Translations under genes and position numbers: made by a program
The notes under the pieces: generated by a model
Database searches by the model: none
The model's input: the letters and a program-made list of their open reading frames with translations, nothing else
What the model was told of the DNA's origin: nothing
Assembly (NCBI RefSeq): GCF_043950625.1
Contig: NZ_CP171007.1
DNA length: 32,000 bases
Strand: one strand, 5' to 3'
From: Alkanindiges sp. WGS2144
GTDB lineage: Bacteria; Pseudomonadota; Gammaproteobacteria; Pseudomonadales; Moraxellaceae
Shown here: in pieces, positions 1 to 17,014 of the stretch
Position numbering within the stretch: position 1 is the first letter of the stretch
Layout of the letters: every line of letters starts with the position of its first letter

Positions 1-2775
1 GCTGAGCGTCGGGGGATTCCGACTGAGCTTGCACTGTTGCCGGTGATTGAAAGTTCTTATGATCCGGCTGCTACCAGTAGCGCGGCGGCCGCCGGGATGT
101 GGCAGTTTATTCCTAGTACCGGCACCATTTATGGCCTGCGCCAGAACTCCATTTATGATGGCCGCCGGGATGTGGTGGAATCCACCCGTGCAGCTTATGA
201 ATTTTTAACCAGCTTATATAACCAGTTTGGCTCATGGGAGCTGGCATTGGCCGCTTATAACGCAGGGCCTGGTCGTGTGCAACAGGCCATTAACCGTAAT
301 GCGGCGGCCGGTTTACCTACCGATTACTGGTCACTCAAGTTGCCTAGCGAAACCATGAGTTATGTGCCGCGCTTTTTGGCTGTGGCGCAGATCATCCGTA
401 ATCCTGAACAATACGGCATATATTTGCCTGCTATTGCCAACCGCCCGCACTTTAGGGAGGTACAGCTACCCGGTGTGGTGGATTTAACGCTGGCAGCCTC
501 TATTGCGGGCTTAAGTTATCAGGAGTTATATGAATTAAATCCGGGCTTTAGAAGCAGTTATACTGACCCGATGGGTCCTAATCGCTTGCTGATACCAGCC
601 GCCTTAAGTGCCCAGGTCGATCAGCGCTTGCGTACCATGCCTACACTGGCACAGACCAACCCCGGTTTAATGGCAAGCCTTGGGCCGGTTGGCGGAGCAG
701 TGATTTTAAATGGTAGTAATCGCTCAGGGAATAGTTTTAGCACTCAGCAGGCTGCGGCACTGATGAGCGCAGGTACCGTAAACCGGAACAATACGTCATC
801 AATTATCACTACACCGGCAAGTAGTAACGCCAATACTACAGTGACTACTACGCTCAGCCAGGGTAATAAAGTATTATCAACCAACACCACGGCAGCTGCT
901 AAACCAGCAGCACCAACTCCTGCTGCTCCTGTGGTTTCTACTCCGGTAGCCCCAGCCAGTAGTGGACTATGGGCGCAAAATACCAAGCGCCAGCCAACGC
1001 CGACATCAGCCAGTGCCTTGGCTGCCTTTGCCAGTCAGGCTGACCTGCCTAGCAGCCCACGAATTCCGGTTGCCGTCACACCGGCGCGTAATGTACAGCC
1101 TATTGGTGAGCCACCTTTGAGTGAGGCAGAACTGCGTGGCCTAAGCGTGGCCAAAAGTCCTGTAGCCCCTAAAGCAGAGCCACAGGCAACCGCTGAAGAA
1201 AAAGCAAAAATTGTTGCTGAACTCCAGGCACTGGCACCGGCCGGAACACAAGTGGTTGACCCGCTGGATGGCAAAATCAAGCTTACTGCTATCCAGACCA
1301 GCCAGTCGGTTGCTGAGTCCAAGGGGCAGGAACTCAAAATCAAATATGAACAGCCTGTCCTACTGGCACAAAAACCAGCGGCCAGTGAGGTCAAGCAAAA
1401 ACCGTCTGCGGTAATTGTGGATACTACCAAAAAGCCTCAGGGCGAGCGTAGTGTACATGTGGTGCAATCAGGCGATACCCTGGCCAATATTGCCAGCCGC
1501 TATGGGGTAAGCTGGCGTGATGTTGCCAGCTGGAACCAGATTGATCCTAATAAATCCTTGTATGTAGGAACCAGTCTGTATTTATACAATGCCAAAAAAC
1601 CTCAGCCAGCGCGTCCAACCAGCTATACCGTACAGGCAGGTGATACCCTGACTGGTGTGGCTGCCAGATTTGGCCTGAGTAACCAGCAGCTGGCAGAAAT
1701 GAACAACCTGAGTCCTACCAGCAACCTGCTGCGCGGTGCCCGCCTGAATCTGGTGGATAGTGGAAACAGTACAACAGTAGCCAGTAGTGCCAGTGATAGC
1801 ACAACCGCCCGCAACACCCGGCCAGCCAGCACAAGTTCAGATAAACAGGACAAAGTTGAAACAGTAAGCTATAAGGTTAAGGCTGGTGAGTCAGTCGGTT
1901 CAATTGCGAATCGCTACAATATAAGCAATGAACAATTGGCATCCCTGAATACTTTTGCCCCTAATAGTTCACTACTGCTGGGGCAAACCATCAAGGTGCC
2001 AGCCACAGGAGCTGCCAACACAGAAAGCAAAGCAGCAGCCCAGCCTGTAGTACCCCTGGAAACAGCCAGCTATACCGTAAAGGCGGGTGATACGCTGGGC
2101 AGGATTGCCAGTCGTTATAATGTCAGCAATGAGGAATTGGCCAAACTCAACAAGATTTCGCCAACCAGCATGGTGATTCTGGGGCAAAAGCTGACTGTGC
2201 CGGGCACTGCTGCTAGTGAAGAGCCAGAGCAGCCTGCGACATATACTGTACAGGCCGGCGATACGCTTATCGGTGTTGCGGCCAGGTTTAACCTGACTCC
2301 GCAGCAATTGGCAGAAATGAATGATCTAAAAGCCAGCAGTAATCTGATTCGCGGGGCTACCCTGAATTTACTTGCAGATAACGCCAGCCCAAAAACAGCA
2401 GGCAAAAGAGCAGAGAAAGAAGAAGCGATAAGCGTTAGCAGTAAAGCGGATTTTTCTGGTGATACGGAAAGCTACACCGTAAAGCGTGGTGAATCGCTCA
2501 ATAGTATTGCTGCCAAGTACGATATTAGCGTGAGTGATTTGGCCAAACTCAACCAGCTACCTGTCAAAAGCATGGTACAAATTGGCCAAAAGCTGAGTGT
2601 GCCCAAACTGACCGTAAACTATACGATCAAGCGTGGGGATACTTTAATTAAGGTTGCTTCCAGACACGGTGTTTCGGTCAATGAACTGGCCAAAATGAAC
2701 CAGATTTCCCCGTCTACCAATGTCAAAATTGGTGAGGTATTGGTAGTACCCAATAATGGAAGCCGTAGCCTATAG
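1..2775 (+). CDS. mltD: Membrane-bound lytic murein transglycosylase D-like protein, 5'-truncated by the window edge. It has an SLT catalytic domain, a long low-complexity linker and seven LysM domains.
   Basis: Frame 1 is open from nt 1 (AERRGIPTELALLPVIESSYDPAATSSAAAAGMWQFIPSTG), which is the classic SLT/MltD active-site region. AYNAGPGRV follows. Seven C-terminal LysM repeats (Y-T/K-V-x-x-G-D/E-T/S-L...N) are present. The stop is TAG at 2773-2775. The track start at 37 is a TTG inside the true ORF. Confidence 0.85.
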   Translation, partial: AERRGIPTELALLPVIESSYDPAATSSAAAAGMWQFIPSTGTIYGLRQNSIYDGRRDVVESTRAAYEFLTSLYNQFGSWELALAAYNAGPGRVQQAINRNAAAGLPTDYWSLKLPSETMSYVPRFLAVAQIIRNPEQYGIYLPAIANRPHFREVQLPGVVDLTLAASIAGLSYQELYELNPGFRSSYTDPMGPNRLLIPAALSAQVDQRLRTMPTLAQTNPGLMASLGPVGGAVILNGSNRSGNSFSTQQAAALMSAGTVNRNNTSSIITTPASSNANTTVTTTLSQGNKVLSTNTTAAAKPAAPTPAAPVVSTPVAPASSGLWAQNTKRQPTPTSASALAAFASQADLPSSPRIPVAVTPARNVQPIGEPPLSEAELRGLSVAKSPVAPKAEPQATAEEKAKIVAELQALAPAGTQVVDPLDGKIKLTAIQTSQSVAESKGQELKIKYEQPVLLAQKPAASEVKQKPSAVIVDTTKKPQGERSVHVVQSGDTLANIASRYGVSWRDVASWNQIDPNKSLYVGTSLYLYNAKKPQPARPTSYTVQAGDTLTGVAARFGLSNQQLAEMNNLSPTSNLLRGARLNLVDSGNSTTVASSASDSTTARNTRPASTSSDKQDKVETVSYKVKAGESVGSIANRYNISNEQLASLNTFAPNSSLLLGQTIKVPATGAANTESKAAAQPVVPLETASYTVKAGDTLGRIASRYNVSNEELAKLNKISPTSMVILGQKLTVPGTAASEEPEQPATYTVQAGDTLIGVAARFNLTPQQLAEMNDLKASSNLIRGATLNLLADNASPKTAGKRAEKEEAISVSSKADFSGDTESYTVKRGESLNSIAAKYDISVSDLAKLNQLPVKSMVQIGQKLSVPKLTVNYTIKRGDTLIKVASRHGVSVNELAKMNQISPSTNVKIGEVLVVPNNGSRSL
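1456..2751 (+). repeat. Array of seven LysM domain-coding repeats inside mltD. Repeats 2-3-4 and 5-6-7 form a duplicated three-repeat module.
   Basis: The protein-level repeats are HVVQSGDTLANIASRYGVS..., YTVQAGDTLTGVAARFGLSNQQLAEMNNL..., YKVKAGESVGSIANRYNIS..., YTVKAGDTLGRIASRYNVS..., YTVQAGDTLIGVAARFNLTPQQLAEMNDL..., YTVKRGESLNSIAAKYDIS... and YTIKRGDTLIKVASRHGVS.... Repeat 2 is closest to 5, 3 to 6, and 4 to 7. Confidence 0.8.
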
Positions 2776-6995: not shown

Positions 6996-8553
6996 TAAGC
7001 CGCTACTTACAGTTGAGCATTTAACTATTCAATCAGAGCAGCACCGGCTAGTGCATGATCTTGGCTTTGAATTAAATGCCGGACAGACTTTGGCAATTGT
7101 GGGGGAAAGTGGTTCAGGTAAATCTATATCATCCTTGGCATTGCTGGGTTTGTTGCCTGACAGCTTAACGGTCAATGGCACAGTGAGTCTGGAGGGTCAA
7201 TCACTGCTGGGTCAAAACCAGACGCAATGGCGCCAGATACGCGGCAAGAAAATTGCCATGATTTTTCAGGAACCCATGACGGCTTTAAATCCGCTGCACA
7301 AAGTGGAAAAGCAAATTGGTGAAATGCTGTATTTGTCCGGAATGAATAAGGTACAGGTTCGGCAAAAAGTCATTGAGCTGCTAAATCAGGTGGGCATTCC
7401 TGAACCGGAGCAAAAGCTTCAGCGCTATCCGCATGAACTGTCCGGTGGACAGCGCCAGCGTGTGATGATCGCCATGGCGCTGGCGCAAGACCCGGACATT
7501 CTAATTGCCGATGAACCTACTACGGCGCTGGATGTGACCTTGCAGGCACAGGTATTAAACCTGCTTAAATCCTTGCAAGTCAGCCGTAATATGGCCATGA
7601 TTTTAATTAGCCATGACTTAAATTTGGTACGACGTTACAGTGATGATGTGATTGTCATGCAACTTGGGCAGGTGAGAGAGCAAGGTAAAACAGAAGCTAT
7701 TTTTGCCAATCCGCAGGACAGCTATACCCAACATTTGCTTAATCAAAATTTTGGGCAGGCTTTGCAGGTGGATAGTACGCAGCCCATGTTACAGCTTGAG
7801 CAGGTGGGGGTGCGTTTTCCCATTAAAACTGGCTTACTGAACCGTGTGACTGATCATGTGATTGCGGTTGAGCCACTGAATTTAACTGTGATGCAGGGCG
7901 AGTCAGTTGGCATTGTCGGGGAGAGTGGTTCAGGCAAAACCTCACTGGCGTTAGCCTTGGCACGTCTGATTAAAAGCGAAGGCAAGATTATTTTAAACCA
8001 GAATCATCTGCATCATCTTAACGAAAATCAGCTACGACCCTTGCGTCCGCAGTTTCAAATGGTATTTCAGGATCCGTTCAGTAGCTTAAACCCACGGCTG
8101 ACCATTGAGCAAATTATTGGCGAAGGGGCAGCGCGGTTAATTCCCAACAAAAAAGAGCGTCGTCAGGCCGTTGAACAAGTCTTGCAAAAAGTAGAATTAC
8201 CTGCGGATTTTGCCGACCGCTATCCGCATCAGCTCTCGGGCGGGCAGCGCCAGCGCGTAGCTTTGGCCCGTGCCTTAATTATGAAACCCAAGCTGATGAT
8301 TCTGGATGAACCGACCTCGGCACTGGACCGTACCACGCAGCGCGCGTTGGTGAGTCTGCTACGCAAGTTGCAGCAGGAAGAACAGATTAGCTATGTGTTT
8401 ATTAGCCATGATCTGGCAGTGATTCGCGCCTTGTGTCAGCGCGTGCTGGTATTGCGGCATGGCAAAGTGATGGAATTACAAAATACCGAAGACTTATTTA
8501 ATAGCCCAAAAACGGAATATAGTCAGGCGCTGATTGAGGCGGCAGCAATATAA
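6973..8553 (+). CDS. yejF: ABC transporter ATP-binding protein with two fused ABC ATPase domains, YejF-like.
   Basis: Two Walker A motifs (GESGSGKS twice), two signature motifs (LSGGQRQRV twice) and two Walker B motifs (ILIADEPT, LMILDEPT). The ATG at 6973 ([17 protein letters not shown]) is preferred over the track start at 6931. It overlaps the yejE end by 23 nt. Confidence 0.88.
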   Translation: MHLIQENNKPLLTVEHLTIQSEQHRLVHDLGFELNAGQTLAIVGESGSGKSISSLALLGLLPDSLTVNGTVSLEGQSLLGQNQTQWRQIRGKKIAMIFQEPMTALNPLHKVEKQIGEMLYLSGMNKVQVRQKVIELLNQVGIPEPEQKLQRYPHELSGGQRQRVMIAMALAQDPDILIADEPTTALDVTLQAQVLNLLKSLQVSRNMAMILISHDLNLVRRYSDDVIVMQLGQVREQGKTEAIFANPQDSYTQHLLNQNFGQALQVDSTQPMLQLEQVGVRFPIKTGLLNRVTDHVIAVEPLNLTVMQGESVGIVGESGSGKTSLALALARLIKSEGKIILNQNHLHHLNENQLRPLRPQFQMVFQDPFSSLNPRLTIEQIIGEGAARLIPNKKERRQAVEQVLQKVELPADFADRYPHQLSGGQRQRVALARALIMKPKLMILDEPTSALDRTTQRALVSLLRKLQQEEQISYVFISHDLAVIRALCQRVLVLRHGKVMELQNTEDLFNSPKTEYSQALIEAAAI

Positions 8554-8572
8554 ATTTTGATAATATAAATTA

Positions 8573-9793
8573 ATGGGGGAGATCATGGCAGAGGGAGCCT
8601 TACAATTTAAGCATTCTGATAATTCATGGAAAGAACTCGAAATTCCGGAAGGCTGTGATGATGCAAAAAAGGAAGAGATCGAAGCCAACAGGCAAAAATT
8701 ATCTGACATTTTATTACAAGCTTTGCAAATGCCTAATTTGGCATTTTTTGCGGGGAGTGGAACATCGTTAGGTGAGACTAATGCCCCTAGCATGTGGAAA
8801 TTATGGCAGTTTGCTATGGTGACAAATCCAGATGATAAGGAGTGTGAGGAATTAACGCCTGAAGCAGAGAGAATAGTTAGTATAGTCAACTACAGCTTAA
8901 TGAAGCCAAACATTGAACACTTCTTATCAAACTGTGATGCTTACTTAAATATTTATGAGGATGATACTCAGGTTAAGCAATTCATCATAGAAGTTAAAAA
9001 AATCATTTTAAATAAATGCACTTTAGATTTTGATGAAACTGAGCATGATATTTCCACTTATGAACAATTAATTAATAAGCTCTCTAAAAGACGAGCACGT
9101 GACCCACGTTTAAAAGTATTCACTACTAATTATGATATGTGCTTTGAAACCGCAGCTTCAAATTTGGGGAAAGTTGTCGTTGATGGATTTTCCTATACCA
9201 GAGAAAGAAAGTTCGATGGTAAGTACTTCCAGTACGATATTGTGCAGCGTGATAGCGAAAAGCATGATTTTATAGAAGGAATTTTCCAGCTTTATAAACT
9301 ACATGGTTCAGTTTCGTGGGAAAGAAGTGAGGCTAACCCCAGTGAAGTATATGAAAAATTAAATCCTGATCCTGAGCGTGCAGCAATTATTTATCCCGCA
9401 AAAAACAAATATCAGCAAGCGTTTATTCAGCCACATTTGGAGCTATTAGCACGATTCTTTGATTATTTAAGGCTACCGAATGCTTGCCTAGTTGTTTCAG
9501 GGTTTGGCTTTAAGGATGATCACTTATCTGAACCTATTTGTGCAGCTATAAAATCAAACCCTAGCTTAAAGCTAATTATTGCTGATATAGAGGCATATAA
9601 GCATATTGAAAACCTTAGAATAGATTCAAGTAGTTACTGGCAGGAATTTAAAAATTTAGCTGAAAAAGGTGCAGATATAACTTTTGTTAATGCTGATTTT
9701 AAAGACTTTGTTGTTTTAATTCCCGACTTGCAAAGTTTAACTCCAGCGGAGAAGCTGGCTAAAGCGGTGCAAAATCTGAACCGAAGAACATAA
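8573..9793 (+). CDS. SIR2-like (SIR2_2 type) NAD+-binding/NADase domain protein, the predicted effector of a SIR2-HerA defence pair.
   Basis: Gly-rich dinucleotide loop FFAGSGTS (nt 8744-8767). TTNYD with the conserved Asn (nt 9122-9136, N186). KLHGS with the conserved His (nt 9296-9310, H244). These three motifs in this order and spacing are the hallmark of prokaryotic SIR2-family defence proteins. An alternative start at ATG 8585 lies just after GGGGGAG (8575-8581). The gene is strongly AT-rich relative to its flanks. Confidence 0.8.
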   Translation: MGEIMAEGALQFKHSDNSWKELEIPEGCDDAKKEEIEANRQKLSDILLQALQMPNLAFFAGSGTSLGETNAPSMWKLWQFAMVTNPDDKECEELTPEAERIVSIVNYSLMKPNIEHFLSNCDAYLNIYEDDTQVKQFIIEVKKIILNKCTLDFDETEHDISTYEQLINKLSKRRARDPRLKVFTTNYDMCFETAASNLGKVVVDGFSYTRERKFDGKYFQYDIVQRDSEKHDFIEGIFQLYKLHGSVSWERSEANPSEVYEKLNPDPERAAIIYPAKNKYQQAFIQPHLELLARFFDYLRLPNACLVVSGFGFKDDHLSEPICAAIKSNPSLKLIIADIEAYKHIENLRIDSSSYWQEFKNLAEKGADITFVNADFKDFVVLIPDLQSLTPAEKLAKAVQNLNRRT

Positions 9794-9795
9794 TC

Positions 9796-11520
9796 ATGTT
9801 TAAAGAGCAGCAAGGTATTTTAAGGGAAGAGCTAAGACTAGGTGTGGTTGCTTCCGTCTCTGCCCAGTTTGTAAAGGTCAATTTGGCTCAAGCAGGTAAT
9901 GTAAGTGGAACTTATATTTGCGGTAACCGCTATGGCTTAGGCGAAGTAGGTGAATTTGTCATTATCGAAGCTCAGCGAACTATAAATCTGGGTAGAATCA
10001 CAGAGGTAAAATTACCAGAGCGAGACCGCACCGAAGTTACGCAAGATTATGACGGTAAAGGTGGGCTAGATGCTATTGGTTTTGTACAGCTACTAGGCTC
10101 TGTTGATTTGAATAACCTGAAGGTACAGGCTGGGGTGGTTTCCTATCCAAGGCTAGGCGATAGAGTATATGCTGCACCGTCTATTCTATTGGCATTGATT
10201 CCTAGCCTGCTAAATAGCGGCGTAGAGGATTGTGGCGATGACCCGGACTCAGCGCTTTTAATTGAATTAGGGGAGGTTACAGGGGAGCTAGGCTGCAAGA
10301 TCAGGGTTAGTCCTGAAAAATTATTCGGTCGACATTGTGCTATTTTGGGCTCAACTGGCGGAGGCAAGAGCTGGACGACTGCGAAAATTATTGAAGAGTG
10401 TGCCAAGTTTAAAAATGCAAAAATAATAGTGATAGATGCTACAGGAGAATATCGGGGTTTGGATGAAGGTTATACTGGGCATTATCATTTGTGTAGCCCT
10501 TTAAGTGTTCATCCAAGTTCTGTCCCCATATTAATCCCACCTACAAATTTTGTTGAAAGTGATTTTGTAGCATTATTTGAACCCTCTTCCAAAGTACAAG
10601 CTCCCAAATTTAAGGAAGCTATTAAAAGTTTACGATTAGTTGAGTTGGTTCCTAGCTTGGCTAATAATAAAGGATACCTATCAAAAATAAATTTACCAAA
10701 AAAGCCCTATAATGATGCATTAAAAAAAGATGGCAACTATAAGAGAGTGGATAATCCCGGTTTATCATTTAACGTAGATCTACTTCCCTTGCAGATTAAA
10801 GAGGAGTGTTGCAGAAATGATTCAAGTGAAGGATGGGGCAAGCTTGATGACTTTAATTTCTCCGCTTGTCTAACTTTGTTGACCCGTATCTACTATGTAA
10901 TAAATGCCCCATCCTTTAAGGCAGTTTTTAATAAAGAGGAAAAACTAGACGATTTTGATACTGTATTTAATAGTTTTTTTGAAGGAAATAAAAAAATCTT
11001 CAGATTATGCCTGAGTGATGTAAGTTATGAGTTTAATGCTCGAGAGATTATTTCCAATGTCATCGGTCGAAAACTTTTAGAGCTTGCCCGGGAGGGAAAG
11101 TTTAAAGAACGACCTTTAGTAGTTTTTGTGGATGAAGCGCATAACTTTTTGGGTAAAAAAATCGGTTTGGAAGAACATGCTGCAAAGCTTGATGCATTTG
11201 AGCTTATAGCCAAGGAAGGTCGCAAATATGGTTTAAATATTTGCCTCACAACTCAGAGGCCGCGTGATATTACTGAAGGCGTACTTAGCCAGATGGGTAC
11301 ACTCATTGTTCATCGGCTAACTAATGATAAAGATAGAGAAGTTGTTGAGCGTGCCTGTGGTGAGCTGGATCGCACAGCAACTGCTTTTTTACCCAATTTG
11401 AAGCAGGGTGAAGTCGCGCTGGTCGGTGTGGACTTTCCAATTCCGATGTCTGTACAGGTGGATAAACCGAACGCTCGACCTAAATCTGATGGCGCAGATT
11501 TTCAGAAAAACTGGAATTAA
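9796..11520 (+). CDS. HerA-like (FtsK/HerA superfamily, DUF87-type) hexameric ATPase/helicase, partner of the SIR2 protein.
   Basis: N-terminal barrel-like segment (LGVVASVSAQFVKVNL...GEFVIIE...LGRITEV). Walker A GSTGGGKSWT (nt 10348-10377, K191). Walker B VVFVDEAH (nt 11119-11142, D446/E447). A downstream TTQRPRD and LIVHRL follow. The start ATG is 2 nt after the SIR2 stop codon. Confidence 0.8.
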   Translation: MFKEQQGILREELRLGVVASVSAQFVKVNLAQAGNVSGTYICGNRYGLGEVGEFVIIEAQRTINLGRITEVKLPERDRTEVTQDYDGKGGLDAIGFVQLLGSVDLNNLKVQAGVVSYPRLGDRVYAAPSILLALIPSLLNSGVEDCGDDPDSALLIELGEVTGELGCKIRVSPEKLFGRHCAILGSTGGGKSWTTAKIIEECAKFKNAKIIVIDATGEYRGLDEGYTGHYHLCSPLSVHPSSVPILIPPTNFVESDFVALFEPSSKVQAPKFKEAIKSLRLVELVPSLANNKGYLSKINLPKKPYNDALKKDGNYKRVDNPGLSFNVDLLPLQIKEECCRNDSSEGWGKLDDFNFSACLTLLTRIYYVINAPSFKAVFNKEEKLDDFDTVFNSFFEGNKKIFRLCLSDVSYEFNAREIISNVIGRKLLELAREGKFKERPLVVFVDEAHNFLGKKIGLEEHAAKLDAFELIAKEGRKYGLNICLTTQRPRDITEGVLSQMGTLIVHRLTNDKDREVVERACGELDRTATAFLPNLKQGEVALVGVDFPIPMSVQVDKPNARPKSDGADFQKNWN

Positions 11521-11525
11521 AAAAT

Positions 11526-12218
11526 ATGAAAAGCAAAACTAAAGTTTTTACTTTATTGTCCATTTTAGCTGTTAGCTCAGCTAATGCCACTACTTTCCAA
11601 ATAAACAACGGCTCCAGCTTATACGATACCAAACTCATGGTTGATCACTGCGATAAAGAGGAATGCTCAGGTAAGGGGGAGATTTTCCTGTATAAAAAAG
11701 GCAGCAAGCAGGTTTTTCAGCGTTTAACGTCAGATGATTTGTTTTTTTATTTACAAGAAAACCAGCAACCCAGCGTGAATGTCATTCAGCTGTACGATGA
11801 ACAAAGCCCGCTGATTTTTGAAGATTTTAATTTTGATGGACAACAGGATTTAGCCATTCGCAATGGTAATCAAGGCAGCTATGGTGGCCCCTCCTATGAT
11901 GTGTACGTATTTAATAAAACCCGGCAAAAATTTGTGCCAAGTAGCGAGCTCACTGCTTTAACCTATGAAAATCTGGGCATGTTTCAAACCGATAGCAAGC
12001 GTCAGCGTTTAGCCACCTTTGCCAAATCAGGCTGCTGTTTTCATGTGACTTCAGAATATGCCGTGATTCCCGGTAAGGGCTTAAAGCTGGTGTATGAATT
12101 TGTTGAAGATGCAATGGGTGGCGAGCAGGTCACGGTGACCAGCAGAAGCTATAATTTAAACACTAAAAAATGGCATACTAAAGTCAAAAAATATCCGCTG
12201 GATCAATATTATCAATAA
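11526..12218 (+). CDS. Secreted/periplasmic protein of unknown function with an FG-GAP/calcium-loop-like motif.
   Basis: Cleavable signal peptide MKSKTKVFTLLSILAVSSANA. It contains FNFDGQQDLAIRNGNQGSYGG, a DxDxD-G-like loop. The start is 5 nt after the HerA stop. GC content returns to host-like values after the signal-peptide region. Confidence 0.6.
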   Translation: MKSKTKVFTLLSILAVSSANATTFQINNGSSLYDTKLMVDHCDKEECSGKGEIFLYKKGSKQVFQRLTSDDLFFYLQENQQPSVNVIQLYDEQSPLIFEDFNFDGQQDLAIRNGNQGSYGGPSYDVYVFNKTRQKFVPSSELTALTYENLGMFQTDSKRQRLATFAKSGCCFHVTSEYAVIPGKGLKLVYEFVEDAMGGEQVTVTSRSYNLNTKKWHTKVKKYPLDQYYQ

Positions 12219-12453
12219 GCAAAATTATCGATTATCAAATTGATTGGCATAAAACCTAAATATTAAAATAATGCATGTCCCAATTTGACAAGACTTTAAT
12301 TCTTGTAAAGCAGGCTTTATTTAATTCGCTAAACAAAGCCATGCGACATTTACCTATGTAGGAGAGAGGTAAACCGTACAGCAGTAAAGCAAGCCGCGAA
12401 GCAAATAAGCGAGCCACGTAGCTGTAAGGCAACTCACTGAAAGATAAAATGAA

Positions 12454-13494
12454 CTAAGCAGCTCTTTTAAAGCGTTTAACCACGGTTGCATTTTTTATAT
12501 AGCCATTATTGACAAACCATTCCAAAGAATCATGCAGGGTTTGTTCAAGCGGACGAACCGTTAGGCCAAGTTCATTGCGTGCTTTGGCGGCATTGACAAT
12601 ACAACCCTGTTTTGCCATTTTAATTTCGATAGGCGTAAGCAGCGGTGGAATTTTGGTAAAACGTGCTGAGGCTGTCATACCAATGGCTACGCCTTTGAGT
12701 AGGAACTCAGGCAAGTGCAACACACGGTTCTTCACTCCACAAATACGTAGCACACGGCGCAACATATCAGTATAGGTATAATTTTCACCACCTAAAATAT
12801 AACTTTCACCGGTACGACCTTTTTCCATTGCCAACACATGTCCCATCGCACAGTCGCGCACATCAATAATATTTACTTCAGAGTTAACGGCCAAAGGCAC
12901 AGGAAAACGGAAAATATCCATCACCATACGACCTGTTGGTGTAGGGCCAACATCGCCAGGACCCATGGGTAGGGCAGGGCAGACAATCACTACATCCAGC
13001 CCTTTTTGTGCATAATCTTCAGCAATACGATGTGAATCATACTTGCTTTTGGCGTAAATCATATCGCCTGCGCTAAAGGGCGAGGTTTCATCGCTGACTT
13101 TATCGGGTCCCTGCCCCGTAAAGCAAATCATTGAGCTGGTATACACCACACGCTTTACGTTTTGTTTAAGACATTCTTCCATGAGTAAGCGAGTGCCACC
13201 CACGTTGATACGATCCATGGCAGACATATCAGGCAACCAAAAGGCATAAATCGCTGCCAGATGAAAGACCACATCACATCCATTCACTGCTCGCGCAACA
13301 TCATCGGCATTGGTAATATCTCCAGCCATGAGTTCCAAGCCTTTAGTACCTTCAAGGTTTAAAAGGTTTTCTTTAGGCAAATGTAAAATACGTAGCTTGG
13401 TCGAGGGATAGCGCTCTTGCAGAATCTTAACGATATTTGAGCCAATAAATCCTGCACCACCAGTAAGTAATATTTGCTTGGGTTCAAACGTCAT
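12454..13494 (-). CDS. NAD(P)-dependent epimerase/dehydratase-family (extended SDR) oxidoreductase.
   Basis: N-terminal Rossmann motif LLTGGAGFIGSNIV and catalytic YAKSK (YxxxK). GGGAG Shine-Dalgarno about 10 nt upstream of the ATG. Substrate cannot be assigned from the sequence alone. Confidence 0.8.
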   Translation of the reverse strand: MTFEPKQILLTGGAGFIGSNIVKILQERYPSTKLRILHLPKENLLNLEGTKGLELMAGDITNADDVARAVNGCDVVFHLAAIYAFWLPDMSAMDRINVGGTRLLMEECLKQNVKRVVYTSSMICFTGQGPDKVSDETSPFSAGDMIYAKSKYDSHRIAEDYAQKGLDVVIVCPALPMGPGDVGPTPTGRMVMDIFRFPVPLAVNSEVNIIDVRDCAMGHVLAMEKGRTGESYILGGENYTYTDMLRRVLRICGVKNRVLHLPEFLLKGVAIGMTASARFTKIPPLLTPIEIKMAKQGCIVNAAKARNELGLTVRPLEQTLHDSLEWFVNNGYIKNATVVKRFKRAA

Positions 13495-13656
13495 GCTTCT
13501 TAAGCTCCCTTTAAGTGAATGTGGTAAGACTATTATTTATAAGCTAAAACTGCTGCTTTAAGACACGTGATATACGTATTGTAAGTATTAATACCTCAAA
13601 AAACGGTCAAGAGAAGTGGCAAAATAGTTAAAAATCCTAAATATTTTGGTAGATTA

Positions 13657-13668
13657 AGATTTAAGGTA
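13657..13668. promoter_or_regulatory. Copy (reverse orientation) of a 12-nt motif, TACCTTAAATCT, shared with the acyl-CoA synthetase upstream region.
   Basis: AGATTTAAGGTA at 13657-13668 is the exact reverse complement of TACCTTAAATCT at 15889-15900. It lies in the divergent region between the SDR gene and the 113-aa ORF. Confidence 0.3.
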
Positions 13669-13770
13669 TCAATCTATGCGCACGTGTCGTAAAACCAGAT
13701 AAGGTAATTGGAATATGAGCAATGACTTTATTTTAAAAGGCCTCGCACTCAGTTAGAGCGTAGCGATGCC

Positions 13771-14112
13771 ATGCGCATGCGTTTAATTGAAGTCACGGCA
13801 GAATATTTGATGAAGCGTTTTTACAGGGTGCTTAGTAAGATGTTTCCCGCCATGGATGGATCGGAAGACCGACATATCAATGCGCAATCTGCCGATGCAA
13901 CCATTTTTTTTGAACATTATTTAAAATTGTGGGTTCAGGTTTTGGTTAGCCATCTGCACGGTAAAGTCAAATCTGATACTGAAATTAACCTTGATCAAGC
14001 CATAGCCTGGATAGTGCGTTTCATTTCGATTCAATATCATTTGAAAAAAACTAAGGGGCGCCAATCATTATTTAACGTCCCTTATTTATTGACCATCAGC
14101 AAGTTTGATTAA
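13771..14112 (+). CDS. Hypothetical 113-aa protein, possibly the remnant of a decayed regulator gene.
   Basis: The ORF has no recognisable motifs. The in-frame upstream sequence reads RPRTQLERSDAMRMRLIE, which resembles a TetR-family N-terminus. It is separated by a frame change from a short ORF starting at 13715 (MSNDFILKGLALS*). Its 3' end overlaps the convergent synthetase gene by 4 nt. Confidence 0.3.
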   Translation: MRMRLIEVTAEYLMKRFYRVLSKMFPAMDGSEDRHINAQSADATIFFEHYLKLWVQVLVSHLHGKVKSDTEINLDQAIAWIVRFISIQYHLKKTKGRQSLFNVPYLLTISKFD

Positions 14113-15806
14113 GCCCAGACGATTTTAGTTTGGGCTGACTCCCACTCTGGCACCTGTGTATGGTAATGCTGCTCAATCTGGTGACGGCGAATTTTTAGGG
14201 TAGGGGTCAACAGATCATTTTCAATGCTCCAGCGTTCAGTGATGAGCACCAGCTTAGCCAGTTTTTCATGCGCTTCTAATTGCTGGTTAATATGGGTCAG
14301 TAGCTCATCATAACTGCTGGTCAGTTCTTGCTGGTGGCTGGCGTGCTGTTGCAGTTTGGCGACGCTTTCTTCAGAGAGCATGACCAGGGCGACAGGGCTG
14401 TTCAGGTTACTGCCCACCACGCACACCGATTCTGTATGCGGATGATTACTTAATAATTGTTCAATGGGTACTGGCGCAACATATTTACCTTTGCTGGTTT
14501 TAAACAGATCCTTCACCCGACCAGTGATAAATAAAAAGCCGTCCTTATCAATACTGCCCATATCGCCGGTACGCAAAAAGTTGTCTTTATCTATCGCCTC
14601 TGCAGTTTTTTCTAAATCTTTGTAATAACCCAGCATGGTGGCCGGGCTTTTAACCAGAATCTCACCTTGTTCACTGATTTTGCATTCCACTTCTGGGCAA
14701 GCATGGCCTACCGAACCCGTGCGTACCTGTCCAAGCCGGCTTAGGTGTGAGTAGGCAAAGTTTTCAGTCATTCCGTAGGCATCCTGCAAGGTGAGCCCCA
14801 GTTTTCGATACCAGTTGATAATATCCGGTGCCAAAGGTGCAGAGCCAGTGGCAGCAATACGCACATGATCCAGCCCCAGCTTTTTTAAAATAAATTTCTT
14901 GGCAAATTTTGAAAGTACCGGCACTTTAAAGACGGCATTTTGCAGTTTAGGCGGTAGTTTGGCGTTAATGCCCTGCTGGAATTTGACCCACAGCCGTGGC
15001 ACCGAGAAAAATATGGTCGGTCGTGCGCGTTGCAGGTCTTGTAAAAAAGTGTCCAGACTTTCGGTAAAATACACTTGAACACCATAATATGGTGCGATGG
15101 TTCCTACAATAAAGCGTTCGGCTGCATGTGCCAGTGGCAGATAGGACAATATGCGGTCATCCGGGCTGAGAGGGAAAACACCATGGCCGTGTTTGGCGGC
15201 ATTGATCATATTTTGTTGGTTATGCATTACGCCTTTGGCACGTCCGGTGCTGCCAGAGGTATACATGATGGTGGCTAAATCCTCTGGTTGGGGCAGCTTT
15301 AGGTCATCATTGGTCAGAGGCGAGTAATTTTTAATAATACTGTCCAGGCTCACCGCATTGGCAACGGGTGGAGCAAAAGGCAGCGTGATCTTGGGCAAGG
15401 CATCCGGTACACCCTGTTTCATGTCTGGCCAGGTATCGGTGCTGCCATCCAGCTTGCCAATAATCATTAGCCTGGCTTCGCTGTGCTCAATTACGTAACG
15501 CAAGTTTTCTGCATTCATGGTGTAATACACCGGCACGCTCACATGGCCGGCAGCCATAATGGCTAGATCGGCTAGCAACCATTCAGCCGAGTTTTTACCC
15601 AACAGTACAATATTGCTGTGAGGGGGTAAATCAAGACTAATCAGATAATGTGCCAGTCGCCGTACAGTATCGGCTGCCTGCTTCCAGGTATAGGTTTTGA
15701 CCTGGCTGTTGCCGATGGGCTGGGTGAGCCATATGTTGTCGGGAGTATGGTACTCCCAGTTAAGTAAACAGTGGACGAGTGTACGACGATCAAATGTGTT
15801 GGACAT
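14109..15806 (-). CDS. AMP-dependent synthetase/ligase, long-chain fatty acid-CoA ligase-like.
   Basis: AMP-binding motif MYTSGSTGRAKGV, YGMTE, and TGDMG...DGFLFITGRVKDLFKTSKGKYV. The ATG at 15806 (MSNTFDRR, with AAGG about 8 nt upstream) is preferred over the track start at 15848. Confidence 0.85.
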   Translation of the reverse strand: MSNTFDRRTLVHCLLNWEYHTPDNIWLTQPIGNSQVKTYTWKQAADTVRRLAHYLISLDLPPHSNIVLLGKNSAEWLLADLAIMAAGHVSVPVYYTMNAENLRYVIEHSEARLMIIGKLDGSTDTWPDMKQGVPDALPKITLPFAPPVANAVSLDSIIKNYSPLTNDDLKLPQPEDLATIMYTSGSTGRAKGVMHNQQNMINAAKHGHGVFPLSPDDRILSYLPLAHAAERFIVGTIAPYYGVQVYFTESLDTFLQDLQRARPTIFFSVPRLWVKFQQGINAKLPPKLQNAVFKVPVLSKFAKKFILKKLGLDHVRIAATGSAPLAPDIINWYRKLGLTLQDAYGMTENFAYSHLSRLGQVRTGSVGHACPEVECKISEQGEILVKSPATMLGYYKDLEKTAEAIDKDNFLRTGDMGSIDKDGFLFITGRVKDLFKTSKGKYVAPVPIEQLLSNHPHTESVCVVGSNLNSPVALVMLSEESVAKLQQHASHQQELTSSYDELLTHINQQLEAHEKLAKLVLITERWSIENDLLTPTLKIRRHQIEQHYHTQVPEWESAQTKIVWA

Positions 15807-15888
15807 GATGCTACCTTGTCTGGCAAATGCCAGCTCCCTGAAAGTCATTGTTATTAATCGATTGGCTAAACTTCGGTATTAATCCAAG

Positions 15889-15906
15889 TACCTTAAATCT
15901 AAGGTA
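15889..15906. promoter_or_regulatory. Perfect 7-bp-arm palindrome TACCTTA-AATC-TAAGGTA upstream of the acyl-CoA synthetase gene, a candidate operator.
   Basis: Read directly from the sequence. It lies 83 nt upstream of the preferred start at 15806. Its first 12 nt recur at 13657-13668 on the other strand. Confidence 0.3.
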
Positions 15907-16168
15907 TAAAATTTACCTGATATTCCTGGCTTAATTTTTAAACTATCCTTGGTTCATCTTAAAGTCAACTGTAAAAACGCATGATTTGACCATAGCCAGA
16001 TGAGCTGGTTTTAAAAATATATCTTATTCATGCAGCACAAGCTGCTCTGTGGGGTTAAAGCGTTTGATCAGATAATCACTGCCCGGACGTTAAGAAAATA
16101 CTGAAATGCATGAGGCCAGAAAATTTTTGCTATTATCCTTGCCATTCAGTTTTAAATAAAGGTTCACT

Positions 16169-17014
16169 ATGACCAATAATGCAGCACAGCCCGCAACAAA
16201 TCAATCTGAGCAACGTGGCTTATTACAAGGCAAACGTTTTTTAATTGCGGGCGTTGCCAGCAAATTATCCATTGCCTATGGCATTGCCCAGGCCTTGCAT
16301 CGTGAAGGCGCAGAATTGGCGTTTACCTATCCCAATGAAAAAATGAAAAAACGGGTGGATGAATTTGCCGCGCAAATGAATTCAAGCCTGGTATTTGAAT
16401 GCGATGTGGCCAATGATGCACACATCGAGCAAGCCTTTACTGATTTAAGCCAGCATTGGGATAGCCTGGATGGCGTGGTGCATTCCATTGGTTTTGCCCC
16501 GGCGGATCAACTGGATGGTGACTTTACCGAGGTGACCAGCCGGGAAGGTTTTAAAATTGCGCATGATATTTCTGCTTATAGCTTTATTGCTATGGCACGT
16601 GCGGCTAAACCTTTATTGCAGGCACGGCAAGGCTGTTTGCTGACTTTAACTTATCAGGGTTCCGAGCGGGTATTGCCCAACTATAATGTGATGGGTTTGG
16701 CTAAAGCATCTTTGGAAGCCAGTGTGCGTTATCTGGCCAGTAGTCTGGGTAAAGATGGAATCCGGGTGAATGCTATTTCCGCAGGGCCAATTCGTACCCT
16801 TGCTGCCAGCGGTATTAAAAGTTTTAGGAAAATGCTGGATGTAAATGCCTCAATTGCACCATTACAACGTAACGTCACTATTGAAGAAGTTGGCAATGCC
16901 GCACTGTTTTTATGTTCACCGTGGGCATCGGGCATTACTGGTGAAATTTTATATGTAGATGGCGGTTTTAATACCGTGGGCATGAGCGAAAGTTTACTAC
17001 AAGCAGAAAATTAA
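16169..17014 (+). CDS. fabI: Enoyl-[acyl-carrier-protein] reductase (NADH), FabI.
   Basis: [34 protein letters not shown], the catalytic Y-x6-K context [13 protein letters not shown], and [22 protein letters not shown] Shine-Dalgarno 6 nt upstream. Confidence 0.92.

What the first reader, a model, noticed from the sequence alone, without database searches (positions are those of the whole stretch)
8573..11520. Two-gene SIR2-like + HerA-like ATPase cassette: a predicted SIR2-HerA (Nezha-type) anti-phage NAD+-depletion system
Seen in the sequence:
- Two tightly coupled genes: the SIR2 stop is TAA at 9791-9793 and the next ATG is at 9796.
- Gene 1 carries the three SIR2-family signatures in canonical order: FFAGSGTS, TTNYD (Asn186) and KLHGS (His244).
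- Gene 2 is a P-loop ATPase with an N-terminal barrel-like segment, Walker A GSTGGGKS (Lys191), Walker B VFVDEAH and a TTQRPRD segment. This is the FtsK/HerA layout.
Established knowledge: pairing a SIR2 NADase effector with a HerA hexameric ATPase is the described two-gene SIR2-HerA defence architecture. In that system the two proteins form a supramolecular complex and abort infection by NAD+ depletion, with reported nuclease activity as well.
Inference: this locus is a member of that family embedded in an otherwise housekeeping neighbourhood. How divergent it is from characterised members cannot be judged without a search. That divergence would decide whether it is a new subtype or only a new instance.
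Basis: partly seen in the sequence, partly recalled or inferred. Interest (0 to 1): 0.9.

Follow-up and report, generated by a model that had tools for sequence, protein, structure and literature searches.

The report
Ordinary SIR2–HerA anti-phage gene pair
This is an intact two-gene SIR2–HerA phage-defence cassette in an Alkanindiges chromosome, and it belongs to a widespread, already catalogued branch of a known defence family, so it is a routine new instance and not a discovery.

Summary

- Both proteins match PADLOC's SIR2 and HerA defence models over their full length (1.6e-85 and 2.1e-163).
- Their predicted folds match best the subunits of solved SIR2–HerA complexes.
- The SaSir2 catalytic Asn/His align with N186/H244.
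- SIR2 lies directly upstream of HerA in all 12 related loci examined. These include an E. coli P4-satellite defence hotspot and plasmid defence islands.

The cassette is low-GC (GC3 0.30–0.33 against 0.39–0.52 in the flanks). It is under purifying selection (dN/dS about 0.1) and sits at the same site in three related lineages.

It is not Nezha in the narrow sense. Identity to solved members is 16–24%, and it scores far below the NCBIfam equivalog cut-offs. It belongs to a large clade, 53–63% identical in the Gamma/Betaproteobacteria sampled, that PADLOC already models. I found no tested member of that clade.

Two extras: the HerA α-bundle segment is hypervariable between close relatives, and a tightly coupled exported XAC2610-like ORF lies downstream and is not a conserved part of the system.

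Verdict: new member of a known kind, low interest.

The parts
8585..9793 (+). SIR2-like NADase gene. Residue numbers in this report use the 8573 numbering.
   Evidence: ORF. Pfam SIR2_2 6.2e-12. PADLOC SIR2 PDLC04075 1.6e-85, residues 16-404 of 406. 100% identical to NCBI 'SIR2 family protein', Alkanindiges sp. WGS2144, 402 aa. The top 39 Foldseek PDB hits are all SIR2 chains of SIR2-HerA entries.
8575..8581 (+). Shine-Dalgarno-like GGGGGAG, 3 nt upstream of ATG 8585
   Evidence: Sequence. An equivalent GGGGAA(T) plus ATG is conserved in L001 and L003.
8744..8767 (+). FFAGSGTS, the Rossmann-type NAD-binding glycine motif of SIR2
   Evidence: Position. G61, S62, G63 and S65 are invariant in 33 clade members.
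9122..9136 (+). TTNYD, carrying the catalytic Asn186 (N182 from the 8585 start)
   Evidence: Position. Invariant in the clade. Aligns with SaSir2 N226 in the 8yhx_G alignment; N226 is named as a catalytic residue in PMC11514289.
9296..9310 (+). KLHGS, carrying the catalytic His244 (H240 from the 8585 start)
   Evidence: Position. Invariant in the clade. Aligns with SaSir2 H287 (PMC11514289).
9796..11520 (+). HerA-like ASCE/RecA-type ATPase gene (574 aa), translationally coupled to SIR2 (stop TAA 9791-9793, ATG 9796)
   Evidence: Pfam DUF87 2.6e-23 and HerA_C 9.6e-08. PADLOC HerA PDLC04103 2.1e-163, residues 10-574. AF2 pLDDT 81, pTM 0.81. Best Foldseek hits are HerA chains of SIR2/HerA complexes, TM 0.65-0.70.
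9838..10173 (+). HerA N-terminal beta-barrel-like domain (about aa 15-126). In solved systems this domain docks into the SIR2 ring.
   Evidence: AF2 strands E15-21, 25-29, 54-58, 63-72, 94-103, 110-112 and 123-126. The role of the domain is taken from PMC11514289 and PMC11472057. Docking in this protein is inferred.
10348..10371 (+). Walker A motif GSTGGGKS (Lys191)
   Evidence: Position. G185, T187-S192 are invariant in 30 clade members.
10636..10995 (+). Hypervariable part (about aa 281-400) of the alpha-helical bundle inserted in the RecA-like domain
   Evidence: Identity between close relatives is 85-89% outside this segment and 27-50% inside it. The window-L003 nucleotide alignment breaks at 10643-11005. 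The helices are confidently modelled, with 10-residue block mean pLDDT 86-96. It maps to the PsHerA alpha-bundle domain, aa 228-396 (PMC11472057).
11122..11142 (+). Walker B motif VFVDEAH (Asp446/Glu447)
   Evidence: Position. D446, E447, A448 and H449 are invariant.
11248..11268 (+). TTQRPRD segment of the ATPase core. R488/R490 are arginine-finger or sensor candidates.
   Evidence: Position. T486-T493 are invariant. It aligns with QRPSE/QRPSEI in solved HerA chains. The role is inferred.

Best explanation
A functional two-gene SIR2-HerA abortive-infection defence system, acquired horizontally by an ancestor of this Alkanindiges lineage and since inherited vertically.

Likely mechanism, by analogy with solved members:
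- HerA forms a hexameric ATPase ring, and its N-terminal beta-barrels dock into a ring of SIR2 subunits (12:6 in the E. coli and S. aureus complexes).
- Assembly makes SIR2 competent to hydrolyse NAD+ using Asn186/His244. Nucleotide binding at the HerA Walker site (Lys191) holds the complex in check.
- During phage infection the check is released. NAD+ is degraded to ADP-ribose and nicotinamide, probably together with a DNA-directed HerA or complex activity. The infected cell stops growing and the phage cannot replicate.

What is shown here: the gene pair, the family assignments, the conserved catalytic residues, the fold matches, conserved adjacency, the defence-island and P4-hotspot context of clade members, and purifying selection.

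What is inferred: complex formation and stoichiometry, NADase activity, ATP gating, the trigger, and phage protection in this host.
For: - Family models: PADLOC SIR2 1.6e-85 and HerA 2.1e-163, both full length; Pfam SIR2_2, DUF87 and HerA_C.
- Sequence matches to solved structures: the top SIR2 hits are all SIR2-HerA subunits (8yhx, 8j4u, 8w9l). The HerA hits mix HerA of SIR2-HerA complexes (8wiv, 8j4u_M, 8yho) with DUF4297-HerA chains (top hit 9c1m).
- Catalytic residues: SaSir2 N226/H287 align with N186/H244 (PMC11514289). These two residues, together with K191, D446 and E447, are invariant in the 33 SIR2 and 30 HerA clade members aligned.
- Folds: the 39 best PDB matches of the SIR2 model are SIR2 chains of SIR2-HerA entries, while ThsA, DSR2 and SPARSA score far weaker. 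The top 10 HerA matches are HerA chains of SIR2/HerA complexes.
- Adjacency: SIR2 lies directly upstream of HerA on the same strand in 12 of 12 loci.
- Context of clade members: the E. coli P4-like satellite psu-int hotspot at tRNA-Leu (hotspot described in PMC9122126); a Klebsiella IncFII/IncR plasmid between McrBC and AbiJ; an A. baumannii plasmid beside a restriction R subunit and an integrase; V. cholerae beside an integrase remnant, and in one strain MazEF and a giant Eco57I/SNF2 gene.
- Selection and origin: dN/dS is 0.11-0.13 for SIR2 and about 0.085 for HerA. GC3 is 0.30-0.33 against 0.39-0.52 in the flanks. GC dips to 0.33-0.38 in most of the cassette (up to 0.45 near the 5' end of HerA) against about 0.47-0.50 upstream.
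Against: - No member of this particular clade was found to have been tested experimentally.
- Identity to characterised members is only 16-24%, and the NCBIfam anti-phage equivalog cut-offs are missed by a wide margin.
- SIR2-HerA subtypes differ in trigger and DNA activity (PMC13434337), so the gating details cannot be transferred with confidence.
- The SIR2 model has low confidence in residues 201-247 and 273-290, next to the active site.
- The locus has no mobile-element or other defence genes around it and no recognisable promoter of its own. It may be read through from the ABC transporter operon.
- dS is saturated (above 1), so the dN/dS values are approximate.
Confidence: 0.85

Rival explanations
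1. The unit is a three-gene system. The XAC2610-like ORF (11526-12218), which starts 5 nt after the HerA stop, would be a functional accessory of SIR2-HerA, for example a regulator or sensor.
For: The spacing is tight (5 nt), the strand is the same, and no terminator lies between the genes. The same arrangement occurs in L001 and L002. Its dN/dS is 0.094 and its GC is lower than the flanks.
Against: It is absent from L003, which keeps SIR2-HerA at the same site, and from all nine more distant loci. It has an N-terminal signal-peptide-like sequence (MKSKTKVFTLLSILAVSSANA), so it is probably exported, whereas SIR2-HerA acts in the cytoplasm. It matches XAC2610 (4qtq, 1.9e-13; NF047539, 3.1e-29). 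From my own knowledge, XAC2610 is a periplasmic immunity protein against a type IV secretion effector. It has no PADLOC hit.
Confidence: 0.04
2. The pair has been domesticated for a non-defence role, such as DNA repair or translocation with an NAD-dependent partner, or regulation linked to the upstream peptide ABC transporter.
For: It sits at a fixed chromosomal position in three lineages with housekeeping neighbours and no mobile-element genes. It lies 31 nt after the ABC ATPase stop with no terminator between. Its synonymous divergence is similar to that of the flanks. Archaeal HerA works with NurA in DNA end resection (PDB 9x1m and 4d2i appear among the fold hits).
Against: None of the 80 other loci that encode a relative of the ABC ATPase carries SIR2 or HerA. 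Clade members elsewhere sit in classic defence or mobile contexts. The SIR2 fold groups with defence SIR2-HerA subunits and the NADase residues are retained. The atypical low GC3 persists.
Confidence: 0.05
3. It is a SIR2-HerA system, but gated like E. coli type III and not like Nezha. The resting complex would be silent. A phage protein such as an SSB would unlock a HerA nickase, DNA ends would then drive ATP consumption, and only then would the NADase fire.
For: SIR2-HerA subtypes are mechanistically diverse and this clade is as far from Nezha as types I-III are (PMC13434337). HerA D214, in the conserved xxIDATxEY strand after Walker A, is invariant. It could correspond to the type III nickase residue D218; this is inference only. 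The hypervariable alpha-bundle suggests a protein- or DNA-sensing surface under arms-race pressure.
Against: The E. coli members of this clade have HerA K190, Y at position 218 and SIR2 N210. They do not have the K188/D218/N238 reported for type III, so they are not the type III proteins themselves. There are no biochemical data for the clade. This rival concerns only the trigger and gating step, not what the system is.
Confidence: 0.25
4. It is an inactive relic of a defence system, no longer functional.
For: It has an isolated chromosomal position, no neighbouring defence genes and no evident promoter of its own.
Against: Both ORFs are intact and every catalytic motif is present. dN/dS of about 0.1 over deep divergence in three lineages shows sustained purifying selection.
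Confidence: 0.03

Closest known systems
E. coli SIR2-HerA / Nezha (NCTC 11129 system; PDB 8j4u, 8su9, 8sub, 8uae)
   Same: The gene order is SIR2 then HerA. The SIR2_2 domain has catalytic Asn/His, and HerA has an N-terminal beta-barrel plus a Walker A/B ATPase. It gives the best fold matches for the SIR2 model (E 2e-14, TM about 0.6) and is among the best for HerA.
   Different: Only 20-24% identity for SIR2 and 18-20% for HerA. It misses the NCBIfam SIR2_antiphage and HerA_antiphage equivalog cut-offs (113/500 and 171/800 bits). The best PADLOC sub-models are different (04075/04103 instead of 02186/02185). The trigger and gating of this clade are unknown.
Staphylococcus aureus SaSir2-HerA (PDB 8yhx/8yho; PMC11514289)
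   Same: It is the best sequence hit for SIR2 in the PDB (8.3e-21). Catalytic N226/H287 align with N186/H244. HerA is of similar size (562 aa against 574 aa).
   Different: Low identity (17-19% by Foldseek). It is a Gram-positive system. Whether the allosteric helix-to-loop activation also occurs here was not tested.
Paenibacillus sp. 453MF PsSIR2-HerA (PDB 8w9l, 8wiv, 8wld; PMC11472057)
   Same: It gives the best fold hits for HerA (E 7e-32, TM 0.68-0.70). The layout is the same: beta-barrel, RecA-like domain, alpha-bundle.
   Different: PsHerA has a C-terminal arm domain (aa 576-696) that stabilises a split spiral. The 574-aa protein here ends just after the RecA-like domain, so it lacks that arm. 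Identity is 21-23%.
E. coli Sir2-HerA types I-III (PMC13434337, NAR 2026)
   Same: These are divergent, non-Nezha SIR2-HerA lineages, 13-22% identical to Nezha. The window's clade has E. coli members (P0200/P0076, in 22 of 5,426 complete genomes), so it probably corresponds to one of the eight E. coli clusters in that study.
   Different: It does not fit type III by residue numbering. Whether it is type I, type II or one of the four clusters that gave no protection cannot be decided, because no sequences or accessions are available in the held text.
DUF4297-HerA (PDB 9c1m, 8xau, 8ziq)
   Same: The HerA partner is very similar. It is the best PDB sequence hit for HerA (9c1m_M, 2.2e-32), with near-equal fold scores.
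   Different: The effector partner is a DUF4297 nuclease, not SIR2. Here the upstream gene is unambiguously SIR2.
Other defence SIR2 proteins (ThsA of Thoeris, DSR2, SPARSA SIR2-APAZ)
   Same: They share the SIR2 NADase core and the NAD+-depletion logic.
   Different: Their fold matches are much weaker (E 1e-5 to 1e-3, TMq about 0.36-0.40). They have different partner domains and no HerA.

Membership tests
SIR2-HerA defence systems (broad family, as in PADLOC) | A SIR2_2-type protein matching curated defence SIR2 models | tested here: met
   PADLOC SIR2 PDLC04075 1.6e-85, covering residues 16-404 of 406 and profile positions 18-411 of 414. Pfam PF13289 46.2 bits against a cut-off of 24.5.
SIR2-HerA defence systems (broad family, as in PADLOC) | A HerA-type ATPase (DUF87/HerA_C) matching curated defence HerA models, with intact Walker A and Walker B | tested here: met
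   PADLOC HerA PDLC04103 2.1e-163, residues 10-574. Pfam DUF87 83.7 bits and HerA_C 31.5 bits, both above their cut-offs. K191 and D446/E447 are present and invariant.
SIR2-HerA defence systems (broad family, as in PADLOC) | The two genes are adjacent, co-oriented and conserved as a pair across genomes | tested here: met
   There is a 2-nt gap in the window. SIR2 lies directly upstream of HerA in 12 of 12 loci retrieved through either protein. By my count more than 30 contig lengths are shared between the two homologue lists, and Erwinia carries the adjacent locus tags ERHA54_06080/06090.
SIR2-HerA defence systems (broad family, as in PADLOC) | The SIR2 catalytic Asn and His needed for NADase activity and defence | tested here: met
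   N186/H244 align with SaSir2 N226/H287 (PMC11514289). They are invariant in 33 clade members. Equivalent Asn/His mutations abolish defence in V. cholerae (PMC11559045).
SIR2-HerA defence systems (broad family, as in PADLOC) | The SIR2 fold is closer to SIR2-HerA subunits than to other SIR2 proteins | tested here: met
   Foldseek ranks 1-39 are all SIR2 chains of SIR2-HerA entries (E 2e-14 to 2e-6). SPARSA, ThsA and DSR2 score 1e-5 or weaker. Caveat: the model's mean pLDDT is 69.6.
SIR2-HerA defence systems (broad family, as in PADLOC) | A HerA N-terminal beta-barrel that inserts into the SIR2 ring | tested here: inconclusive
   An all-beta N-terminal domain is predicted (aa 15-126) and the Foldseek alignments span the full length. 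The pLDDT there is only 33-84, and no complex model could be made, so docking is inferred.
SIR2-HerA defence systems (broad family, as in PADLOC) | Assembly into a supramolecular SIR2:HerA complex (12:6 or 14:6) that activates the NADase | not testable with these tools
   No multimer prediction or biochemistry is available here. The feature is known for the Ec, Sa and Ps systems (PMC11514289, PMC11472057).
SIR2-HerA defence systems (broad family, as in PADLOC) | Protection against phage, with NAD+ depletion on infection | not testable with these tools
   This needs an experiment. No tested member of this clade was found in the literature.
SIR2-HerA defence systems (broad family, as in PADLOC) | Clade members are enriched in defence islands or mobile-element hotspots | tested here: met
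   E. coli P4 psu-int hotspot. Klebsiella plasmid between McrBC and AbiJ with IS elements. A. baumannii plasmid beside a restriction R subunit and an integrase. V. cholerae integrase, MazEF and Eco57I/SNF2 neighbourhood. This is a sample of a few loci, not a statistical enrichment.
Nezha in the narrow sense / NCBIfam SIR2_antiphage (NF042942) and HerA_antiphage (NF042943) equivalogs | A score above the curated equivalog cut-off, that is, the same orthologous group as the first characterised systems | tested here: not met
   113.6 bits against a cut-off of 500, and 170.7 bits against 800. Structural alignments give 20-24% and 18-20% identity to the E. coli Nezha subunits.
E. coli type III Sir2-HerA (PMC13434337) | HerA Walker Lys at position 188, nickase Asp at 218, and Sir2 catalytic Asn at 238 | tested here: not met
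   The E. coli members of the window's clade have HerA K190, Y218 and SIR2 N210, with F at position 238. This is a numbering test only, because no type III sequence was available.

The most novel reading that the evidence does not exclude
This cassette represents a large SIR2-HerA subtype (PADLOC sub-models 04075/04103) that has not been characterised experimentally. Its phage specificity would be set by the HerA alpha-helical bundle. That module is swapped or diversified even between close relatives (27-50% identity inside it, 85-89% outside). It would be the sensor surface for a phage trigger, with gating different from both Nezha and type III.
Probability: 0.2. Interest if true: 0.45.

Novelty: new member of a known kind. 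Interest (0 to 1): 0.18.

Why it matters
It matters little beyond annotation. The result adds one defence system to the inventory of a poorly studied genus (Alkanindiges, Moraxellaceae). It also shows a SIR2-HerA cassette that has been fixed at a housekeeping site, directly behind an ABC transporter operon, across related lineages instead of riding on a mobile element. The one point that could repay follow-up is the hypervariable HerA alpha-bundle segment. If it determines which phages are sensed, the three natural alleles (window, L001, L003) offer a ready-made swap experiment for a family whose triggers are largely unknown.

Tried and rejected
1. Empty site. I scanned genome contigs with the upstream ABC ATPase. 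No close Alkanindiges genome came back. The best hit was a 65%-identical Acinetobacter MAG whose downstream genes are unrelated (an old-yellow-enzyme-like ORF and a 198-aa ORF). So the insertion borders are defined only by GC and by comparison with L001 and L003.

2. Mobile-element signatures. No direct or inverted repeats frame the cassette. There is no tRNA and no integrase or transposase.

3. Promoter and terminator scan. It was uninformative. The only promoter-like site near the start overlaps the start codon, and there is no + strand terminator.

4. Assigning the clade to types I-III of PMC13434337. No accessions or supplementary text are held. Residue numbering speaks only against type III.

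5. Linking the clade to the validated V. cholerae A103 Nezha. The V. cholerae clade member P0189 has N220/H278 and lies in a different locus from the tonB-trmA Gabija island; A103 SIR2 has N168/H227. I therefore rejected it as the same system.

6. Literature searches. Searches for the RefSeq accessions of the E. coli and Klebsiella members and for Alkanindiges defence systems found nothing relevant.

7. HerA fold as a discriminator of partner type. I rejected this, because DUF4297-HerA and archaeal HerA score almost as well as SIR2-associated HerA.

Full report
**Observation.** The two ORFs exist exactly as described. The first runs 8573–9793 (+, 406 aa, stop TAA at 9791–9793). The second runs 9796–11520 (+, 574 aa).

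All six motifs are at the stated residues:
- SIR2-like protein: FFAGSGTS 58–65, TTNYD 184–188 (N186), KLHGS 242–246 (H244).
- HerA-like protein: GSTGGGKS 185–192 (K191), VFVDEAH 443–449, TTQRPRD 485–491.

One correction: the true SIR2 start is probably ATG 8585. It is preceded by GGGGGAG, and the same Shine-Dalgarno-plus-ATG arrangement is conserved in two related contigs. NCBI also annotates a 402-aa protein.

One omission: a third ORF (11526–12218) begins 5 nt after the HerA stop.

**Identity of the proteins.**
- Pfam gives SIR2_2 (6.2e-12) for gene 1, and DUF87 (2.6e-23) plus HerA_C for gene 2.
- PADLOC's defence models match both end to end: SIR2 PDLC04075 at 1.6e-85 and HerA PDLC04103 at 2.1e-163.
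- NCBIfam's anti-phage equivalogs are hit but far below their cut-offs, 113.6 against 500 bits and 170.7 against 800 bits. The pair is therefore in the family but not in the orthologous group of the first characterised systems.

**Comparison with solved structures.**
- By sequence, the best PDB relatives of the SIR2 protein are all SIR2 subunits of solved SIR2–HerA systems: 8yhx (S. aureus), 8j4u (E. coli Nezha) and 8w9l (Paenibacillus). The HerA hits mix SIR2-associated HerA (8wiv, 8j4u_M, 8yho) with DUF4297-HerA chains, and the top hit is 9c1m.
- In the HMMER alignment, the experimentally defined SaSir2 catalytic residues N226 and H287 (PMC11514289) fall exactly on N186 and H244.
- The AF2 model of SIR2 is moderate (pLDDT 69.6). 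Its 39 best PDB matches are all SIR2 chains of SIR2–HerA entries, with 16–24% identity. ThsA, DSR2 and SPARSA score orders of magnitude weaker.
- The AF2 model of HerA is good (pLDDT 81, pTM 0.81). It shows an all-β N-terminal domain, a RecA-like core and an inserted helical bundle.
- The best HerA matches are HerA chains of SIR2/HerA complexes (TM 0.65–0.70, 19–23% identity). DUF4297-HerA and archaeal HerA follow closely. The HerA fold alone therefore does not identify the partner; the SIR2 gene does.
- Compared with PsHerA, this HerA lacks the C-terminal arm domain (PMC11472057).

**Source and distribution.** The window is from Alkanindiges sp. WGS2144; both proteins are 100% identical to NCBI entries from that genome.
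- Homologues at 53–63% identity (SIR2 52–61%, HerA 55–63%) occur widely in Gamma- and Betaproteobacteria. Many SIR2 and HerA hits lie on contigs of identical length, and Erwinia carries adjacent locus tags.
- In the 1.84-billion-representative library, the window's SIR2 is closest to the E. coli protein P0200 (56% identity).
- Below that there is a continuum of 185 representatives at E ≤ 1e-30 and 749 at E ≤ 1e-10.

**Co-occurrence and context.** SIR2 lies immediately upstream of HerA on the same strand in all 12 loci retrieved through either protein. Clade members were seen in these contexts:
- E. coli: the pair occupies the P4-like satellite hotspot between psu/δ and int, next to tRNA-Leu. 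It is present in 22 of 5,426 complete genomes. Rousset et al. list SIR2+HerA among the known systems at that hotspot (PMC9122126).
- Klebsiella: on an IncFII/IncR plasmid it lies between McrBC and AbiJ, among IS elements.
- A. baumannii: on a plasmid it lies beside a restriction R subunit and an integrase.
- V. cholerae: it lies beside an integrase remnant and phage portal fragments. In one strain it is also next to MazEF and a giant Eco57I/SNF2 gene.

**The locus in this lineage.**
- Composition: GC falls from about 0.47–0.50 upstream to 0.33–0.38 in most of the cassette, with a local rise to 0.45 near the 5' end of HerA. GC3 is 0.30 for SIR2 and 0.33 for HerA, against 0.39–0.52 in the flanks.
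- Mobility signs: no repeats, tRNA, integrase or transposase mark the site.
- Position: three related metagenomic contigs (HerA 74–77% identical) carry the pair, and the two that extend upstream (L001, L003) place it directly behind the same ABC ATPase gene. The content between HerA and FabI differs. The window has the XAC2610-like ORF, an epimerase, orf113 and an AMP-binding enzyme. L001 has only the XAC2610-like ORF. L003 has only the epimerase.
- Divergence: the cassette's nucleotide and synonymous divergence are about the same as those of the ABC genes. dN/dS is 0.11–0.13 for SIR2 and about 0.085 for HerA (dS is saturated).
- Linkage: none of the 80 other loci encoding relatives of the ABC ATPase has SIR2 or HerA.

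I read this as an old horizontal acquisition that has since been inherited vertically and kept functional.

**Mechanism.** By analogy with the E. coli, S. aureus and Paenibacillus systems (PMC11514289, PMC11472057, PMC13434337), the likely mechanism has three parts:
- A HerA hexamer docks through its β-barrels into a ring of SIR2 subunits.
- Assembly makes the SIR2 NADase competent, and nucleotide binding to HerA restrains it.
- Infection releases NAD+ hydrolysis, probably with a DNA-directed activity, and this aborts the infection.

The trigger and the gating details cannot be transferred. The 2026 classification shows that E. coli SIR2–HerA lineages are only 13–22% identical to each other and differ in trigger and DNA activity: Nezha is a passive sensor of falling ATP with helicase and nuclease activity, whereas type III is an SSB-triggered nickase cascade.

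The E. coli members of this clade do not fit type III by residue numbering. They have HerA K190, Y218 and SIR2 N210, against K188, D218 and N238. Whether they are type I, type II or one of the clusters that gave no protection could not be determined. The validated V. cholerae A103 Nezha is a different locus from the V. cholerae member of this clade.

**Extras.**
1. HerA residues about 281–400 lie in the α-bundle inserted in the RecA-like domain and are confidently modelled. They are hypervariable between close relatives: 27–50% identity inside the segment against 85–89% outside. L003's segment is nearer to distant clade members than to its close relatives. This suggests module exchange or diversifying selection on an exposed surface.
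2. ORF3 is an exported XAC2610-like protein (NF047539 at 3.1e-29; 4qtq at 1.9e-13; signal-peptide-like N-terminus). It is tightly coupled to HerA here and in L001 and L002, but absent from L003 and from all distant members. It is not a conserved component of the system.

**Verdict.** The locus is a new instance of a known, catalogued kind. PADLOC models this clade, RefSeq annotates both genes, and a close analogue of the arrangement sits in a published E. coli hotspot. Interest is low. The only mildly novel angle is that no member of this clade was found to have been tested, together with its hypervariable HerA module.

Noticed in passing
window 11526-12218 (+): A 230-aa ORF starts 5 nt after the HerA stop. 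It has a signal-peptide-like N-terminus (MKSKTKVFTLLSILAVSSANA) and an XAC2610-related domain (NF047539 3.1e-29; PDB 4qtq 1.9e-13). It is coupled to HerA here and in L001 and L002, but absent in L003 and in all distant SIR2-HerA loci. It may be an orphan immunity-type gene that hitch-hiked into the same spot.
   Followed up: partly
window 10636-10995 (HerA aa ~281-400): The alpha-helical bundle insertion of HerA is hypervariable between otherwise close relatives (27-50% identity inside, 85-89% outside). L003's version is closer to distant clade members than to its close relatives. This suggests module swapping or diversifying selection.
   Followed up: partly
window 11520-16170 compared with L001 7725-8540 and L003 4797-6130: The stretch between HerA and FabI is a small variable region in this lineage. 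The epimerase (12454-13494, -), orf113 (13771-14112), the AMP-binding enzyme (14109-15848, -) and the XAC2610-like ORF are each present or absent in different relatives.
   Followed up: partly
window 8553-8585: Only 31 nt separate the stop of the ABC ATPase gene from the likely SIR2 start. No terminator and no convincing promoter lie between them, so the defence genes may be transcribed by read-through from the peptide ABC transporter operon.
   Followed up: no
SIR2 aa 174-290 (window ~9092-9442): The AF2 confidence is very low in residues 201-247 and 273-290, around the catalytic Asn/His, even though these positions are strongly conserved. This may reflect a mobile lid like the helix-to-loop element described for SaSir2, or it may simply reflect the shallow 33-sequence alignment.
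   Followed up: no
phage record MT837022.1, 4320-5966 (hit H1): A 10.7-kb unannotated 'Bacteriophage sp.' contig from human faeces encodes a HerA 39% identical over 97% of the query. It may be a phage- or satellite-borne relative of the system.
   Followed up: no
L084 10611-12113 / L092 12084-13586 (E. coli): The E. coli housekeeping gene yjgR (helicase HerA-like C-terminal domain protein) happens to lie just outside the P4-like satellite that carries the SIR2-HerA pair. Domain-based neighbourhood scans could be confused by it.
   Followed up: no
window 37-2775 (+): A large ORF carries an SLT lytic transglycosylase domain followed by seven LysM repeats (Pfam LysM 8.7e-96). Its N-terminus is probably cut off by the window edge.
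   Followed up: no
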